64,000 nt of DNA from Escherichia coli. Its GTDB lineage: Bacteria > Pseudomonadota > Gammaproteobacteria > Enterobacterales > Enterobacteriaceae. Each line of letters opens with the position of its first letter. Within the stretch, counting starts at the first letter, position 1. Below the pieces are notes generated by a model. That model was given only the letters and a program-made list of their open reading frames with translations. It did not search any database and was not told the DNA's origin. Below, piece by piece: positions 1 to 59,987 of this stretch. The stretch lies in assembly GCF_024700885.2 (NCBI RefSeq), contig NZ_CP117016.1, one strand, 5' to 3'. The position numbers and the translations under genes were made by a program.

Positions 1-222
1 GTACTTTCGGTAGAAGCAACAAATTGGAATCTTGGGAATAAGGATGGTTATCAGCAACGCGCAAAAACAGCAGCATTCCCTGCGGGAAATAGCTGGCATG
101 ACGTAAGACTGGATAATCAACAACATATTGATAAGGCACTTCCAGGAAGAATAGAACGTCGCTGCCGTGATGTTATGCGGATAATGCTACCGCTGGTGAA
201 GGAGCTGGCGAAGGCGTCTTGA
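1..222 (+). CDS. iap: 3' end (last 73 codons) of an M28-family aminopeptidase gene, probably iap; 5' part lies upstream of the window
   Basis: Frame 1 is open from position 1 to TGA at 220-222, giving ...VLSVEATNWNLGNKDGYQQRAKTAAFPAGNSWHDVRLDNQQHIDKALPGRIERRCRDVMRIMLPLVKELAKAS*. The WHD..D motif resembles the C-terminus of M28 peptidases such as Iap. Identity is by recall, not search. Confidence 0.55.
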   Translation, partial: VLSVEATNWNLGNKDGYQQRAKTAAFPAGNSWHDVRLDNQQHIDKALPGRIERRCRDVMRIMLPLVKELAKAS

Positions 223-323
223 TGGGTTTGAAATGATTACTCCCTTGCCTGCAGGAAATCAATGCCACCAGAAACAGAGTATAAAAAAGGGGTGCAGGAG
301 GCCAAACTTTAACAATTCAATAC

Positions 324-342
324 GCGGGGTTTTACCCCCGCG
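324..342 (-). terminator. GC-rich hairpin (CGCGGGG-loop-CCCCGCG) 6 nt downstream of hokX stop; putative hok mRNA terminator
   Basis: Perfect 7-bp GC stem read directly; on the minus strand it is followed by the U-containing tract GUAUUGAAUUGUU. Confidence 0.5.
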
Positions 343-348
343 TGGTGG

Positions 349-501
349 CTACTTCTTCGATTCGTAAGCGAGAACTGCCTTAAACTCCATACCACGTTCT
401 CTGATACTCAACTCACACAACGAGTCGCCTACCATCAGCGTGAATCCCAGTACTGTACAACACAGTACGATGATTGCCACAAGGGCATATTTTGTCAGCA
501 T
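349..501 (-). CDS. hokX: Hok/Gef-family type I toxin (50 aa), hokX-like
   Basis: Minus-strand ORF not in the ORF track (under 60 aa): [50 protein letters not shown]. Hydrophobic N-terminal helix plus the C..E..R.G..E.A...YES signature of Hok proteins; GGAGG 7 nt upstream of ATG; stop TAG at 349-351. Confidence 0.75.
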
Positions 502-765
502 GTCTTGCCTCCCTGCAAAGAAGAGACTAACATTCGAATTGCTTAGGTTCGAACGCTGGCCTCAGGTTGATAGAAATATCGCCTGGGGCTTTTGTCCATC
601 TGGAACCTCGCGAATGCTTAACGCCAGACAGCCTCAAGCACCCAACTCCATTCTATACCTGTTAATTCTCCCTGCGATGTTCACCTTTAAATGCCGGAAT
701 GCTGCTCGCAAAATAAAAACGCCCCCATCATTTCTGACAGAGGCGTTTAATTTATCCGGCAATAT

Positions 766-1500
766 TTACCCTTCGTGTAACCCACATTCCCTTTTTAAGC
801 CAAAGAAACGCGTTTCTTCTTCCGCCATGCCGGGTTCCCATTTACGGGTTGTATGGGTATCGCCCACCGATAAATATCCTTCGTCCCATAATGGGTGATA
901 TTTCAGGCCATGTTTTTGCAGGTACTGATAAATAGTTCGGTTATCCCAGTCGATAATCGGCAGCACTTTAAATACGCCACGCTGAATTGCCAGCACCGGT
1001 AAATTGGCGCGGCTGCCGGATTGTTCACGGCGCAGGCCAGCAAACCAGGTTTGCGCGTTAAGTTCTTTCAGCGCCCGGTTCATCGGTTCGACTTTGTTGA
1101 TGTCATTGTACTTTTCAATGCCTTCAACGCCCTGCTCCCACAGTTTGCCGTAGCGCGCTTCCTGCCAGGCGGCGCTTTCGGTAGCGCGGTACACTTTCAG
1201 GTTGAGCTTGAGTTTGTCCGTTAACTCGTCAATAAAGCGGTAGGTTTCCGGGAACAGATAACCCGTATCGGTCAGGATCACCGGGATATCCGGGTGAATC
1301 TGATTCACCAGATGCAGGCTCACCGCCGCCTGAATGCCGAAACTGGAAGAAAGTACATATTCACCGGGCAGATTATCCAGCGCCCAGGCAACGCGGCCTT
1401 CAGCATCCAGTTTTTCCAGTTCGGCGTTAGTTTCTGCCAGCGCCAGAATGCGATCTACCTTCGGCAGTTCGTTCAGGGCGTTTAGATCGAGTTTGGACAT
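766..1500 (-). CDS. cysH: phosphoadenosine phosphosulfate (PAPS) reductase
   Basis: ORF 766..1653 trimmed to internal ATG at 1500 (244 aa, [25 protein letters not shown]...); recognisable CysH sequence; first gene of the cysJIH arrangement read 3' to 5'. Confidence 0.95.
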
Positions 1501-15080: not shown

Positions 15081-16559
15081 ATGTCGAAAAAATACATCAT
15101 AGGGATTGATGGCGGAAGTCAGAGCACAAAAGTGGTGATGTACGATCTGGAAGGTAACGTGGTTTGCGAAGGCAAAGGCTTATTACAGCCGATGCACACG
15201 CCAGATGCCGATACTGCAGAACATCCTGACGACGATTTATGGGCATCATTATGTTTTGCCGGTCACGATTTGATGAGTCAGTTTGCCGGAAATAAAGAAG
15301 ATATTGTCGGTATTGGTCTGGGATCCATCCGTTGCTGCCGTGCGTTATTGAAAGCCGATGGCACGCCAGCTGCGCCGTTGATTAGCTGGCAGGATGCTCG
15401 CGTTACACGCCCTTACGAACATACGAATCCTGACGTGGCATATGTCACCTCTTTTTCGGGTTATCTGACGCATCGCTTAACCGGCGAGTTTAAAGATAAT
15501 ATCGCCAACTATTTTGGTCAGTGGCCGGTGGATTATAAGAGCTGGGCATGGAGCGAAGAGGCTGCGGTAATGGATAAGTTTAATATCCCCCGTCATATGC
15601 TGTTTGATGTGCAAATGCCTGGCACCGTCCTCGGACATATCACACCACAAGCCGCGCTGGCGACACATTTCCCGGCTGGGCTGCCGGTTGTTTGTACCAC
15701 CAGTGATAAACCGGTAGAAGCACTGGGAGCCGGGTTACTGGATGATGAAACTACGGTAATTTCTCTTGGCACTTACATCGCGTTGATGATGAACGGCAAA
15801 GCACTGCCGAAAGATCCGGTAGCGTACTGGCCGATTATGTCTTCTATTCCGCAAACATTGCTGTATGAAGGTTACGGTATCCGCAAAGGCATGTGGACAG
15901 TGAGCTGGCTGCGCGACATGTTAGGCGAGTCGTTAATTCAGGATGCCAAAGCACAGGATCTTTCACCGGAAGATTTGCTCAACAAAAAAGCGTCTTGTGT
16001 GCCGCCTGGCTGTAATGGTCTGATGACGGTGCTGGACTGGCTGACCAATCCGTGGGAACCGTACAAACGCGGGATTATGATCGGCTTTGATTCCAGCATG
16101 GATTACGCATGGATATATCGTTCGATACTGGAAAGCGTGGCGCTGACGCTGAAGAACAATTACGACAATATGTGTAATGAAATGAATCACTTTGCAAAGC
16201 ATGTGATCATTACTGGCGGCGGTTCGAACAGCGATCTGTTTATGCAGATTTTTGCCGACGTGTTCAACCTTCCGGCACGCCGTAACGCCATTAATGGTTG
16301 TGCAAGTCTGGGGGCAGCGATTAATACGGCGGTAGGTCTGGGGCTATACCCGGATTACGCAACGGCTGTCGACAAAATGGTTCGCGTGAAAGATATCTTT
16401 ATGCCTGTTGAGAGCAACGCCAAACGCTACGACGCGATGAATAAAGGCATTTTCAAAGACCTAACCAAGCACACTGATGTGATCCTGAAAAAATCGTATG
16501 AAGTGATGCATGGTGAGCTGGGGAATGAAGATTCGATCCAGAGCTGGTCGAATGCGTAA
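15081..16559 (+). CDS. ygcE: FGGY-family carbohydrate kinase
   Basis: 492-aa ORF, MSKKYIIGIDGGSQSTKVVMYDLEGN...; N-terminal GIDGG sugar-kinase motif. Confidence 0.85.
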   Translation: MSKKYIIGIDGGSQSTKVVMYDLEGNVVCEGKGLLQPMHTPDADTAEHPDDDLWASLCFAGHDLMSQFAGNKEDIVGIGLGSIRCCRALLKADGTPAAPLISWQDARVTRPYEHTNPDVAYVTSFSGYLTHRLTGEFKDNIANYFGQWPVDYKSWAWSEEAAVMDKFNIPRHMLFDVQMPGTVLGHITPQAALATHFPAGLPVVCTTSDKPVEALGAGLLDDETTVISLGTYIALMMNGKALPKDPVAYWPIMSSIPQTLLYEGYGIRKGMWTVSWLRDMLGESLIQDAKAQDLSPEDLLNKKASCVPPGCNGLMTVLDWLTNPWEPYKRGIMIGFDSSMDYAWIYRSILESVALTLKNNYDNMCNEMNHFAKHVIITGGGSNSDLFMQIFADVFNLPARRNAINGCASLGAAINTAVGLGLYPDYATAVDKMVRVKDIFMPVESNAKRYDAMNKGIFKDLTKHTDVILKKSYEVMHGELGNEDSIQSWSNA

Positions 16560-16568
16560 GTGAGGAAG

Positions 16569-16591
16569 GCCGGGCGGGAAACTGCCCGGCC
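16569..16591 (+). terminator. GC-rich stem-loop just downstream of ygcE stop (possible terminator, no U-run)
   Basis: GGCCGGGC-GGGAAACT-GCCCGGCC, 8-bp stem. Confidence 0.4.
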
Positions 16592-16605
16592 TGAACATAC
16601 CTGAA

Positions 16606-16877
16606 TGGTTATCCCCGCTGACGCGGGGAACTCGCCAGTGCCTGGTCATATGTGTAACACCTATCCGGTTTATCCCCGCTCGCGCGGGGAACTCTTGCTG
16701 TATAGAGATTATCGGCGTGGGATTGTCGGTTTATCCCCGCTCGCGCGGGGAACTCGTTTGCGGCTTGCAAACATTTTAATGCGTATTCGGTTTATCCCCG
16801 CTCGCGCGGGGAACTCCCAGCCCGACACAAATAATGCAGCATTGCGCGCGGTTTATCCCCGCTCGCGCGGGGAACTC
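16606..16877 (-). CRISPR. orphan type I-E-like CRISPR array: 5 repeats (29 bp; leader-distal one degenerate, 28 bp) and 4 spacers of 32 bp
   Basis: Repeats at 16606-16633 (degenerate TGGTTATCCCCGCTGACGCGGGGAACTC), 16666-16694, 16727-16755, 16788-16816, 16849-16877, consensus CGGTTTATCCCCGCTCGCGCGGGGAACTC. Spacers: GCCAGTGCCTGGTCATATGTGTAACACCTATC; TTGCTGTATAGAGATTATCGGCGTGGGATTGT; GTTTGCGGCTTGCAAACATTTTAATGCGTATT; CCAGCCCGACACAAATAATGCAGCATTGCGCG. No cas genes in the window. Confidence 0.9.
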
Positions 16878-17040
16878 TCTAAACATAACCTATTATTAAT
16901 TAATGATTTTTTAAGCCAGTCACAATCTACCAACTTTACAGTATCACACAAACAACACATCTATTATGTTAAAGAGCACTTAATCCATTGATTGAAAAGG
17001 TAAATATTTAAAATAACTCTATACAAACTAAAATCTACCA
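16878..17040 (-). other. AT-rich CRISPR leader adjacent to the intact terminal repeat
   Basis: AT-rich sequence abutting the non-degenerate end of the array; extent approximate. Confidence 0.5.
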
Positions 17041-17216
17041 AACTCCGACGTAATAATTTTCACCTCAGAGAAAAATTAACGCCACAGAATTTGTAGAGAA
17101 TGACAATGATTAGTCCGGAATGGGCAAAATGGATGAGTTTTCAGAGGCGACAAAAAATATAAATGAGTGGAAGTCTTTACAGGTTCCACCCATTTATAAC
17201 GCATATAAATGTGTAA

Positions 17217-17888
17217 TCAGGCAATATTTAAATATTTATGTGTTTGCATCGACAAACGCCAGTTACGCGCAATGCAAGTTTCAATGCACAAACGTGTGGC
17301 ATCATCCTTTTGGCTAATCGGCTGCAGTGCAATGACTCGCGGTTTATCATCGGTCAGCGTCGCAAGCAATTCATCCAGTGCTTCGATATCACGTACGCGT
17401 CCAACTGGGTGTTTGATTTCGTTAGCTCGCTCCAGGGCTTGCGACAATACTTCATAACCACCACGCATATTTAGCTTTGGCGACACGGTGACCCAGGTAT
17501 TCGACGTACAACGCACTTCATGAGTACCGCTGGTTTCTATCTGGCAACTGAAACCGTTCTTTTCGAGCAGATCAGTTAGTGGCATCAAGTCATGAATACA
17601 AGGTTCACCACCCGTAATCACCACGTGACGCGCGGTGTATCCCTGACGACCGATGACTGCGAGTAAGTCTTCACTGCTTGCTGCTCCCCACTTATCACTC
17701 TCTTTCGTTTTACCCAGAATGCTGAAAAGGGAAACTTCCCGATCCTCAAGCTTTTCCCATGTGTGTTTGGTGTCGCACCAGGCACAGCCGACCGGGCATC
17801 CCTGTAAACGAATAAAAATGGCGGGAACGCCGGTAAAGTAACCCTCACCTTGCAGGGTCTGGAACATCTCGTTAATCGGGTACTGCAT
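17217..17888 (-). CDS. queE: 7-carboxy-7-deazaguanine synthase (radical SAM, queuosine pathway)
   Basis: 223-aa ORF, MQYPINEMFQTLQGEGYFTGVPAIFIRLQGCPVGCAWCDTK...; radical-SAM Cys motif. Confidence 0.9.
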   Translation of the reverse strand: MQYPINEMFQTLQGEGYFTGVPAIFIRLQGCPVGCAWCDTKHTWEKLEDREVSLFSILGKTKESDKWGAASSEDLLAVIGRQGYTARHVVITGGEPCIHDLMPLTDLLEKNGFSCQIETSGTHEVRCTSNTWVTVSPKLNMRGGYEVLSQALERANEIKHPVGRVRDIEALDELLATLTDDKPRVIALQPISQKDDATRLCIETCIARNWRLSMQTHKYLNIA

Positions 17889-18181
17889 AGCATTCTCTGT
17901 GAAGTGGATAATTGTTAATTATTGCAGATCCTGCCACAACAATCATGTCTTATTAACATTCTGTTACAGGCAGGTTTAAAGAAAAATGAGAAACAGATCG
18001 TTAATAATAAAAGGGAGTAACGTATTATGTCAGAAATAAATAAAGTAAAGGGATTTAATCATGTCAAAAACATTCACCAAAATTATACTTATTTTTTCTG
18101 TGTTCGTTTTTAATTATAACGAATCTCAAATTACCGATGCCGCCGTCAATTTATTTATCCAGCTTTAATGGGACATTTATA

Positions 18182-36624: not shown

Positions 36625-36993
36625 AATAAAAAAAGGGAGCACTGTATTCACAGTGCTCCCGGTTCGTTTCGCAGCATTCCAGCTACTTTTGTTGCTCCCT
36701 GCTCATCCTTGACAACTTTTCCTCTGGCCTTGCGGCCAATCGTTCATCCTGAACTATTGCTTCCTGCTCACACCACCCCGATGTGATACTTCATCCTGAA
36801 GTGTCCCTGGCCTTCCTGACCCACCGAATCATCCTGACCGGTTCTCATTCTCCATCCTGGAGGTGTCCTTTAACGCGTCCTGCGTCATCCTCTTCGCTTC
36901 ATCCAGAAGCCTTTCCCTGAAACACCATCCTGGTGTGTCCTTCAGAAGTGTCATCATCCTGATGTTCACTTCGTTGTCTGACTCCCTGTCGAC
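36625..36993 (-). ncRNA. csrB: CsrB small RNA (CsrA-sequestering)
   Basis: Minus-strand transcript of about 369 nt from GUCGACAGGGAGUCAGACAACGAAGUGAACAUC (5' end at 36993) to hairpin GGGAGCACUGUGAAUACAGUGCUCCC plus U-run (36627-36660). At least 8 exact CATCCT (AGGAUG in the RNA) plus many more CAGGA/AGGA motifs on the plus strand. Confidence 0.95.
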
Positions 36994-55163: not shown

Positions 55164-55369
55164 ACTTCCTGAGCCGGAACGAAAAGTTTGATCGGAATGC
55201 GTGTTCTGGTGAACTTTTGGCTTACGGTTGTGATGTTGTGTTGTTGTGTTTGCAATTGGTCTGCGATTCAGACCATGGTAGCAAAGCTACCTTTTTTCAC
55301 TTCCTGTACATTTACCCTGTCTGTCCATAGTGATTAATGTAGCACCGCCTAATTGCGGTGCTTTTTTTT
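55164..55369 (+). ncRNA. gcvB: GcvB small RNA
   Basis: ACTTCCTGAGCCGGAACGAAAAGTTT... with GU-rich TGTGATGTTGTGTTGTTGTGTTTGCAATTGG region, ending in terminator AGCACCGCCTAATTGCGGTGCTTTTTTTT; divergent from gcvA. Confidence 0.93.
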
Positions 55370-59691: not shown

Positions 59692-59768
<77 letters not shown>

Positions 59769-59801
59769 ATTAAAATTTGATGAAGTAAAGCAGTACGGTG
59801 A

Positions 59802-59878
<77 letters not shown>

Positions 59879-59910
59879 ATCAAATTTGATGAAATAAAGC
59901 AGTACGGTGA

Positions 59911-59987
<77 letters not shown>

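What the first reader, a model, noticed from the sequence alone, without database searches (positions are those of the whole stretch)
16606..17040. Orphan I-E-type CRISPR array (4 spacers) with leader but no adjacent cas genes
Five repeats (consensus CGGTTTATCCCCGCTCGCGCGGGGAACTC; the ygcE-proximal one degenerate) separate four 32-bp spacers, with an AT-rich leader on the queE side. With no cas genes in 64 kb the array is probably immunologically inert unless cas genes exist elsewhere, but the spacers are a record of past encounters and a strain-typing marker. Orphan arrays have also been proposed to act against acquisition of cas genes when spacers match them.
Basis: partly seen in the sequence, partly recalled or inferred. 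Interest (0 to 1): 0.5.

Follow-up and report, generated by a model that had tools for sequence, protein, structure and literature searches.

The report
Leftover E. coli CRISPR array, no cas
This is the well-known second CRISPR array of Escherichia coli (between ygcE and queE), a real four-spacer record of past phage encounters in a lineage that has lost its cas genes; it is genuine but ordinary.

Summary
Four exact 29-nt type I-E repeats plus one degenerate terminal repeat (16605-16877) separate four 32-nt spacers. A conserved AT-rich leader lies on the queE side.

The locus is the E. coli CRISPR-II array in its fused "CRISPR2.2-3" form. The window also contains the place where the I-E cas operon and the CRISPR2.1 array normally sit (iap to cysH, window 1-780). 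Only hok/sok is there. The same empty junction occurs in 1105 of 5426 complete E. coli genomes.

Thirty complete genomes carry the identical array. Twenty-nine of them show no match to I-E cas1 or cas3 anywhere. One (GmM066) gives unexplained extra matches.

Three of the four spacers trace to phage genes:
- S2: exact 32/32 match with an AAG PAM, in a terminase large-subunit gene.
- S3: exact 32/32 match with an AAG PAM, in a Mu Gam-like gene.
- S1: 29/32 match to a prophage tail-fibre gene, all three mismatches synonymous.

No spacer matches a cas gene or the host. The array is best read as a frozen, probably inert relic of I-E immunity, and this configuration has already been described (Almendros 2014). 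Low interest.

The parts
16605..16633 (-). Terminal (leader-distal) degenerate repeat, ATGGTTATCCCCGCTGACGCGGGGAACTC on the + strand
   Evidence: It matches the array repeat at 24/29 positions. It corresponds to the ygcE-proximal terminal repeat of K-12 CRISPR2.2, with the same ygcE-side flank and the same body as far as GGGGAAC; the last two bases differ (CTC here, CAT in K-12).
16634..16665 (-). Spacer S1 (oldest); crRNA sense GATAGGTGTTACACATATGACCAGGCACTGGC
   Evidence: It matches the tail-protein gene of Stx2k phage phiSTEC1575 and prophage tail-fibre genes of about 39 E. coli genomes at 29/32. All three mismatches are synonymous. The flank is AAA, and AAG would be synonymous. The cas-less strain 2012C-4221 shares this spacer with one SNP.
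16666..16694 (-). Repeat 2 (exact)
16695..16726 (-). Spacer S2; crRNA sense ACAATCCCACGCCGATAATCTCTATACAGCAA
   Evidence: Exact 32/32 match preceded by AAG in metagenome contig ULSO01042213.1, inside a terminase large-subunit gene flanked by small terminase, portal and head-protease genes. The same spacer is the leader-proximal spacer of CRISPR2.1 in 4 of 4 inspected cas-E2 genomes and occurs in the arrays of about 70 genomes.
16727..16755 (-). Repeat 3 (exact)
16756..16787 (-). Spacer S3; crRNA sense AATACGCATTAAAATGTTTGCAAGCCGCAAAC
   Evidence: Exact 32/32 match preceded by AAG in IMG/VR contig IMGVR_UViG_2713896897_000016. It lies inside a Mu Gam-like gene next to exonuclease, excisionase and integrase genes, which marks a temperate phage.
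16788..16816 (-). Repeat 4 (exact)
16817..16848 (-). Spacer S4 (newest); crRNA sense CGCGCAATGCTGCATTATTTGTGTCGGGCTGG
   Evidence: No target was found in phages, plasmids, E. coli genomes, IMG/VR or GTDB representative genomes.
16849..16877 (-). Repeat 5, leader-proximal (exact)
   Evidence: As RNA it forms a 7-bp stem with a GCGA loop at -15.1 kcal/mol, the same energy as the K-12 repeat with its GCCA loop.
16878..17216 (-). CRISPR2.3-type leader and the rest of the intergenic region up to the queE stop codon. It is AT-rich, and the array is read from here towards ygcE.
   Evidence: It aligns along its full length with the K-12 CRISPR2.3 leader with few differences (3 in the ~180 nt nearest the repeat, more further out) and only loosely with the CRISPR2.1 leader. 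G+C is 27-30%. The promoter is inferred from the literature on K-12, cited in PMC3903273. A simple consensus scan found no sigma-70 site on the - strand.
1..780 (.). Empty canonical CRISPR-I / cas-E site: iap 3' end (1-222, +), hok (349-501, -), sok-family RNA match (486-643), then the cysH 3' end
   Evidence: Rfam sok match at 111.7 bits. Annotation of strain 1190. Sequence. In K-12, NCTC9080 and O157:H7 the CRISPR2.1 array and eight cas genes lie between iap and cysH. The same junction is found in 1105 of 5426 genomes.

Best explanation
This is the chromosomal CRISPR-II array of E. coli, in the fused 'CRISPR2.2-3' form, located between ygcE and queE/ygcF. It is a genuine type I-E array.

How it was built: Cas1-Cas2 inserted spacers at the leader end. 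This is shown by 32-nt spacers whose exact phage protospacers carry the AAG PAM, and by the leader-proximal repeat allele being copied into every later repeat.

Why it is orphaned: the lineage now lacks the I-E cas operon and the CRISPR2.1 array at their fixed site between iap and cysH, about 16 kb away and inside this window.

What follows (inferred): the conserved leader may still drive a pre-crRNA. Without Cas6e it cannot be processed, without Cascade and Cas3 it cannot interfere, and without Cas1-Cas2 it cannot grow. The array is therefore a frozen, immunologically inert relic. It is useful as a lineage marker and could be re-armed only if a cas-E module were regained by recombination.
For: Anatomy:
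- Exact repeats with 61-nt spacing; none expected by chance.
- The repeat differs from the K-12 CRISPR2.1 repeat at one loop base and folds identically.
- The terminal repeat corresponds to the K-12 CRISPR2.2 terminal repeat (same ygcE-side flank; it differs only in its last two bases), and the leader is the K-12 CRISPR2.3 leader.

Genuine adaptation:
- S2 and S3 have exact 32/32 protospacers preceded by AAG, in phage TerL and Mu Gam-like genes.
- S1 matches prophage tail-fibre genes at 29/32 with only synonymous differences.

Loss of cas:
- iap, hok/sok and cysH are contiguous in the window, where K-12, NCTC9080 and O157:H7 carry eight cas genes.
- No Cas protein matches the window.
- 29 of 30 genomes with the identical array have no cas1/cas3 match of either E. 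coli variant anywhere, and no E. coli plasmid has one.

Frozen state:
- The identical array is present in 30 genomes from humans, chickens, dogs, a marsupial and water, including serotypes O166:H15 and O7:H15.

Already known:
- PMC3903273 describes CRISPR2.2-3, cas-less CRISPR-I arrangements with hok/sok, and conserved CRISPR2.3 leaders in strains lacking cas-E.
Against: - Inertness is inferred, not measured. No expression or interference data exist for this lineage.
- One genome with the same array (GmM066) gives two extra matches whenever cas1/cas3 pieces are in the query, although its canonical site is empty. A cas module elsewhere cannot be excluded for every member, nor for the window's own genome.
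- The cas test used only 400-450-nt pieces of cas1 and cas3 from the two E. coli variants. A very divergent I-E system would be missed.
- A simple consensus scan found no sigma-70 promoter on the transcribed strand of the leader.
Confidence: 0.88

Rival explanations
1. The array is not orphaned in function. I-E Cas proteins encoded elsewhere in the genome, at a non-canonical site or on a mobile element, process its transcript and use its spacers.
For: GmM066, one of the 30 genomes with the identical array, shows two extra matching places whenever cas1/cas3 pieces are included in the query, although its iap-cysH site is empty. cas-E modules are known to be exchanged by recombination in E. coli (PMC3903273).
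Against: The other 29 genomes show a single place, which is the tag sequence itself, and so have no cas1/cas3 match. No plasmid among the 20,395 records matches. No Cas protein matches the 64-kb window. The array is identical in all 30 genomes, so there is no sign of ongoing acquisition.
Confidence: 0.06
2. The array is kept as an anti-cas 'vaccination'. Its spacers target cas genes and block uptake of a CRISPR-Cas system, as proposed for orphan I-F CRISPR4 arrays of E. coli.
For: None here beyond the orphan status. RR1 (I-F-type) arrays of uropathogenic E. coli do carry spacers against I-F cas genes (PMC12736100).
Against: A search with the four spacers against 5426 E. coli genomes at E<=1 hit only CRISPR arrays and prophage tail genes, in 140 records. 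A cas match would have hit thousands. The longest local matches to the K-12 and O157 cas operons are 11-12 nt, which is chance level. Three spacers have phage structural or recombination genes as targets.
Confidence: 0.01
3. The array transcript has a non-immune role, for example as a regulatory RNA that pairs with a host mRNA, or as a structured spacer element between the convergent genes ygcE and queE. It would be retained for that reason.
For: The array and leader persist unchanged across a widespread lineage without cas. The repeats form stable hairpins.
Against: No spacer matches the window beyond 12-13 nt. None matches any other place in the genomes that carry the array, where each has a single place. 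Related cas-less genomes keep only one repeat (PCN033) or a different spacer set (2012C-4221), so the content is not conserved. No Rfam family matches. Persistence is explained by clonal descent.
Confidence: 0.03

Closest known systems
E. coli K-12 CRISPR-II locus (CRISPR2.2 plus CRISPR2.3, ygcE-ygcF/queE)
   Same: Same chromosomal site, orientation and leader (3 differences in the ~180 nt nearest the repeat). The degenerate terminal repeat next to ygcE corresponds, differing only in its last two bases. The 29-nt repeat and 32-nt spacers are the same.
   Different: K-12 has two arrays separated by about 0.5 kb of AT-rich DNA; here there is one fused array (CRISPR2.2-3). The repeat ends in CTC as in K-12 CRISPR2.1 (K-12 CRISPR2.3 has CAC) and carries a loop change, GCCA to GCGA. 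All spacers differ. K-12 has the cas operon 16 kb away; this lineage does not.
cas-less CRISPR-I arrangements of E. coli with hok/sok retained (Almendros et al. 2014, mBio, PMC3903273)
   Same: iap, hok/sok and cysH are contiguous, with no cas-E genes, no CRISPR2.1 array and no CRISPR2.1 leader. The CRISPR2.3 leader is still conserved at the other locus.
   Different: Nothing essential. In a 237-strain uropathogen survey, the ygcE-queE array (RR4) was seen only in cas-E-positive groups (PMC12736100). A multi-spacer CRISPR-II array in a cas-less background is therefore the less common combination.
Orphan I-F CRISPR4 arrays of E. coli with anti-cas spacers (Almendros et al. 2016, recalled from my own knowledge; compare RR1 spacers in PMC12736100)
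   Same: A chromosomal array that persists without its cognate cas genes.
   Different: It has a different repeat type (28-nt I-F) and a different locus (clpA-infA), and its spacers target I-F cas genes. Here no spacer targets any cas gene.

Membership tests
Type I-E CRISPR array (E. coli 'type 2' repeats) | A 29-nt partly palindromic repeat that matches the E. coli I-E consensus and forms the Cas6e-type hairpin | tested here: met
   28/29 identity to the K-12 CRISPR2.1 repeat. It forms a 7-bp stem at -15.1 kcal/mol, the same as K-12, and the only change is in the tetraloop.
Type I-E CRISPR array (E. coli 'type 2' repeats) | Regular repeat-spacer period (61 nt) with unique 32-33-nt spacers | tested here: met
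   Spacing is 61, 61, 61, 61 nt, with four different 32-nt spacers.
Type I-E CRISPR array (E. coli 'type 2' repeats) | AT-rich leader at one end and a degenerate repeat at the other | tested here: met
   The leader aligns along its full length with the K-12 CRISPR2.3 leader and has 27-30% G+C. The terminal repeat matches at 24/29.
Type I-E CRISPR array (E. coli 'type 2' repeats) | Spacers derived from mobile elements, with protospacers flanked by the I-E PAM (AAG / AWG) | tested here: met
   S2 and S3 have exact protospacers preceded by AAG in phage TerL and Mu Gam-like genes. S1 matches a tail-fibre gene at 29/32. S4 has no target.
Type I-E CRISPR array (E. coli 'type 2' repeats) | Transcription from the leader and Cas6e processing into 61-nt crRNAs | not testable with these tools
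   No expression data are available. The consensus promoter scan found no - strand site.
[quoted passage not shown] | Cognate cas3-casABCDE-cas1-cas2 operon present | tested here: not met
   The canonical iap-cysH site is empty in the window. tblastn with 16 Cas proteins against the window gave no hit. 29 of 30 genomes with this array have no cas1/cas3 match.
Orphan array (no cognate cas anywhere in the genome) | Absence of I-E cas genes in the whole genome of the source strain | tested here: inconclusive
   This was shown only by proxy, through near-identical complete genomes: 29 of 30 are negative and GmM066 is anomalous. The source genome itself is not available.
Anti-cas orphan arrays (CRISPR4-like) | At least one spacer that matches a cas gene | tested here: not met
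   there are no matches beyond 11-12 nt to the E1 or E2 cas operons, and no cas hits in 5426 genomes.

The most novel reading that the evidence does not exclude
The orphan array may be a dormant but ready memory that is re-armed when a cas-E module returns. GmM066 may be a natural case of this, with cas1/cas3-like DNA at a non-canonical site. Separately, two observations might reflect transfer of spacer-repeat cassettes between the two I-E arrays or between strains, rather than independent acquisition: the identity of spacer S2 with the newest CRISPR2.1 spacer of about 70 cas-E2 genomes, and the rare GCGA-loop repeat allele shared by cas-positive and cas-less lineages.
Probability: 0.15. Interest if true: 0.35.

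Novelty: already known. Interest (0 to 1): 0.1.

Why it matters
It matters little beyond correct annotation. The finding confirms that this lineage belongs to the roughly one quarter of E. coli genomes without I-E cas genes. One search found 4009 of 5426 with a match, which leaves 1417 without. The lineage still keeps a CRISPR-II array. The four spacers are a stable clonal marker, identical in 30 complete genomes from several hosts and serotypes. They also add two exact, PAM-flanked phage targets to the sparse list of traced E. coli spacers, in line with the reported bias towards temperate phages (PMC10910852). If a cas-E module were regained, S2 and S3 would immediately specify interference. 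That is a modest, testable point about how long immune memory outlives the machinery.

Tried and rejected
1. Tandem Repeats Finder did not report the array, because the spacers make the 61-nt units too dissimilar. The repeat finder and the pattern search did report it.

2. Rfam gave no CRISPR-repeat or other family at the locus, only chance-level hits.

3. The first chimeric query (ygcE plus array plus cas pieces) gave 4-6 'places' in the array-bearing genomes, which looked like hidden cas genes. A local BLAST showed the extra places are out-of-register self-alignments of the array. Repeating the search with a repeat-free tag gave 1 place in 29 of 30 genomes.

4. Spacer S4 had no target in phages, plasmids, E. 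coli genomes, IMG/VR or GTDB representative genomes.

5. The 22-nt core of S2 is absent from IMG/VR. It was found only in a metagenome contig.

6. The anti-cas and self-targeting ideas were rejected.

7. The location of the extra cas-like matches in GmM066 could not be obtained, because the search lists only the best place per record.

8. The simple promoter scan found nothing on the transcribed strand of the leader. This scan is weak evidence either way.

Full report
**Observation**

The sequence at 16605-16877 is a textbook CRISPR array. The 29-nt unit CGGTTTATCCCCGCTCGCGCGGGGAACTC occurs exactly at 16666, 16727, 16788 and 16849. No occurrence is expected in 100 dinucleotide-preserving shuffles of the window, even with three mismatches allowed. 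A fifth, degenerate copy (24/29) lies at 16605-16633, 45 nt after the ygcE stop codon. The four intervening 32-nt sequences are all different.

On the queE side the G+C content drops to 27-30%. RefSeq annotates 'CRISPR' at exactly these coordinates in E. coli strain 1190, whose chromosome is 99.99% identical to the window over all 64 kb. Only trivial coordinate corrections are needed.

**Identity of the locus**

The flanking genes are ygcE (15081-16559, +) and queE/ygcF (17217-17888, -). This is the CRISPR-II locus of E. coli. Comparison with K-12 shows three things:
- The degenerate terminal repeat and the GC-rich hairpin before it correspond to the ygcE-proximal end of K-12 CRISPR2.2: the hairpin and flank are identical, and the repeat differs only in its last two bases.
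- The 339-nt region from the first repeat to queE aligns along its full length with the K-12 CRISPR2.3 leader. There are only 3 differences in the ~180 nt nearest the repeat, and more further out. It aligns only loosely with the CRISPR2.1 leader.
- The window therefore holds the single fused form that Almendros et al. (2014, PMC3903273) call CRISPR2.2-3.

The repeat orientation and the leader position mean the array is read on the - strand, from queE towards ygcE. S4 (16817-48) is therefore the newest spacer and S1 (16634-65) the oldest.

The repeat differs from the K-12 CRISPR2.1 repeat at one base, which lies in the hairpin tetraloop (GCCA to GCGA in RNA sense). The predicted 7-bp stem and its energy (-15.1 kcal/mol) are unchanged.

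**Is it orphaned?**

The window shows more than that. In K-12, NCTC9080 and O157:H7, the CRISPR2.1 array and the eight I-E cas genes lie between iap and cysH. The window starts inside iap:
- Bases 1-222 are the iap 3' end.
- Next come a hok gene (349-501, - strand) and an Rfam sok match (486-643, 111.7 bits).
- cysH follows directly.

The fixed chromosomal site of the cognate cas operon is thus present in the window and is empty. The same junction, aligned end to end, occurs in 1105 of 5426 complete E. coli genomes. Overall, 1417 of 5426 have no match to I-E cas1 or cas3 of either E. coli variant, and no plasmid has one. tblastn of all 16 Cas proteins (K-12 and O157 variants) against the window gives nothing at E<=0.01.

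To ask whether cas genes sit elsewhere, I used the 30 complete genomes that carry the identical four-spacer array. I searched them with a chimeric query made of a repeat-free tag from this locus plus pieces of cas1 and cas3 from both variants.
- Twenty-nine genomes give a single matching place, which is the tag itself.
- An earlier version of the test seemed to show extra matches. These were out-of-register self-alignments of the array.
- One genome, GmM066, gives two extra places in both tests, although its iap-cysH site is empty. I could not locate these matches.

**What the spacers say**

- S3 has an exact 32/32 match in an IMG/VR contig, immediately preceded by AAG, the canonical I-E PAM. 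The match lies inside a Mu Gam-like end-protection gene next to exonuclease, excisionase and integrase genes, which marks a temperate phage.
- S2 has an exact 32/32 match preceded by AAG in a metagenome contig. It lies inside a terminase large-subunit gene flanked by small terminase, portal and head-protease genes.
- S1 matches the tail-protein gene of Stx2k phage phiSTEC1575, 17 IMG/VR contigs and prophage tail-fibre genes of about 39 E. coli genomes, at 29/32. The three mismatches are all synonymous in the gene's frame. The flank is AAA, one synonymous change away from AAG.
- S4 has no target in any collection searched.

No spacer matches a cas gene. The search of 5426 genomes returned only arrays and prophage tail genes, and the longest local matches to both cas operons are 11-12 nt. 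No spacer matches the host elsewhere either. The bias towards temperate-phage targets agrees with a recent survey of E. coli spacers (PMC10910852).

**History (inferred)**

New I-E repeats are copied from the leader-proximal repeat. This is established knowledge of I-E adaptation, from my own knowledge. All four full repeats here carry the rare loop allele, while the terminal repeat does not. This fits at least three acquisitions (S2-S4) after that allele appeared, and so a period when Cas1-Cas2 were present.

The allele, together with this leader, is exact in only 46 of 5426 genomes:
- It is in all 13 full repeats of the cas-E1-positive strain 06-00048.
- It is only in the leader-proximal repeat of the cas-less strain 2012C-4221, which shares S1 with one SNP.
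- It is in the single repeat of PCN033.

The array is now identical in isolates from humans, chickens, dogs, a marsupial, lake water and seawater, including serotypes O166:H15 and O7:H15. That is what a frozen array in a clonally spreading lineage should look like. Loss of the cas module by recombinational replacement of the iap-cysH segment is the mechanism proposed for E. coli by Almendros et al.. I did not test it here.

**Mechanism and rivals**

The best-supported reading is a genuine I-E array that has outlived its cas genes. It may still be transcribed from its conserved leader, but it can be neither processed, used nor extended. Inertness is inferred, not shown.

The rivals are weak:
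- Cas proteins supplied in trans: 29 of 30 proxy genomes are negative.
- Anti-cas vaccination: no spacer matches a cas gene.
- A non-immune RNA role: no host matches, and the spacer content is not conserved in related cas-less strains.

**Comparison with what is known, and novelty**

Every element has been described: the locus, the fused CRISPR2.2-3 form, the conserved CRISPR2.3 leader in strains lacking cas-E, and the cas-less iap-hok/sok-cysH arrangement (PMC3903273). A 2025 survey of 237 uropathogenic strains found the ygcE-queE array only in cas-E-positive groups (PMC12736100). A four-spacer CRISPR-II array in a cas-less background is therefore the less common combination, but it is not a new kind of thing.

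Verdict: real, correctly interpreted, already known, low interest.

Noticed in passing
window 16695-16726 (spacer S2); L003 20001-20032; L027, L028 and L029 1501-1532: Spacer S2 is identical to the leader-proximal (newest) spacer of the CRISPR2.1 array next to K-12-type cas2e in all four genomes inspected, and it occurs in the arrays of about 70 complete genomes. There it is flanked by GCCA-loop repeats; here it is flanked by GCGA-loop repeats and sits in the other array. This means either independent acquisition of the same terminase protospacer or short-patch transfer between arrays.
   Followed up: partly
NZ_CM183652.1 (GmM066), location unknown; L006 covers its empty iap-cysH site: One of the 30 genomes with the identical array gives two extra matches whenever I-E cas1/cas3 pieces are in the query, although its canonical cas site is empty. 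It may carry a cas module at a non-canonical chromosomal site.
   Followed up: partly
window 16666-16877 (repeats); L025 19391-20151; L026 20001-20029: The rare repeat allele with a GCGA tetraloop (a GNRA-type sequence) instead of GCCA is exact, together with this leader, in only 46 of 5426 genomes. It fills a 13-spacer array in a cas-E1-positive strain, but it is only in the leader-proximal repeat of a cas-less strain that shares spacer S1.
   Followed up: partly
window 349-643: A Hok/Gef toxin gene (349-501, - strand) and an Rfam sok-family RNA match (486-643, 111.7 bits) sit exactly at the junction left by the missing cas operon, between iap and cysH. K-12 retains only sokX at this position.
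   Followed up: partly
window 16568-16591: A GC-rich inverted repeat (GGCCGGGC ... GCCCGGCC) lies between the ygcE stop codon and the terminal repeat and is identical in K-12. No T-run follows it on either strand, so it is not a canonical intrinsic terminator.
   Followed up: no
window 36625-36984 (-), 55164-55369 (+), 59692-59984 (+): Rfam finds CsrB sRNA, GcvB sRNA and three tandem tRNA genes, which are annotated tRNA-Met in strain 1190. All are at their expected syntenic positions.
   Followed up: no
window about 18027-18168 (strain 1190 locus_tag CNQ48_RS05515): The small gene between queE and ygcG, which is yqcG in K-12, is annotated as a frameshifted pseudogene in this lineage.
   Followed up: no
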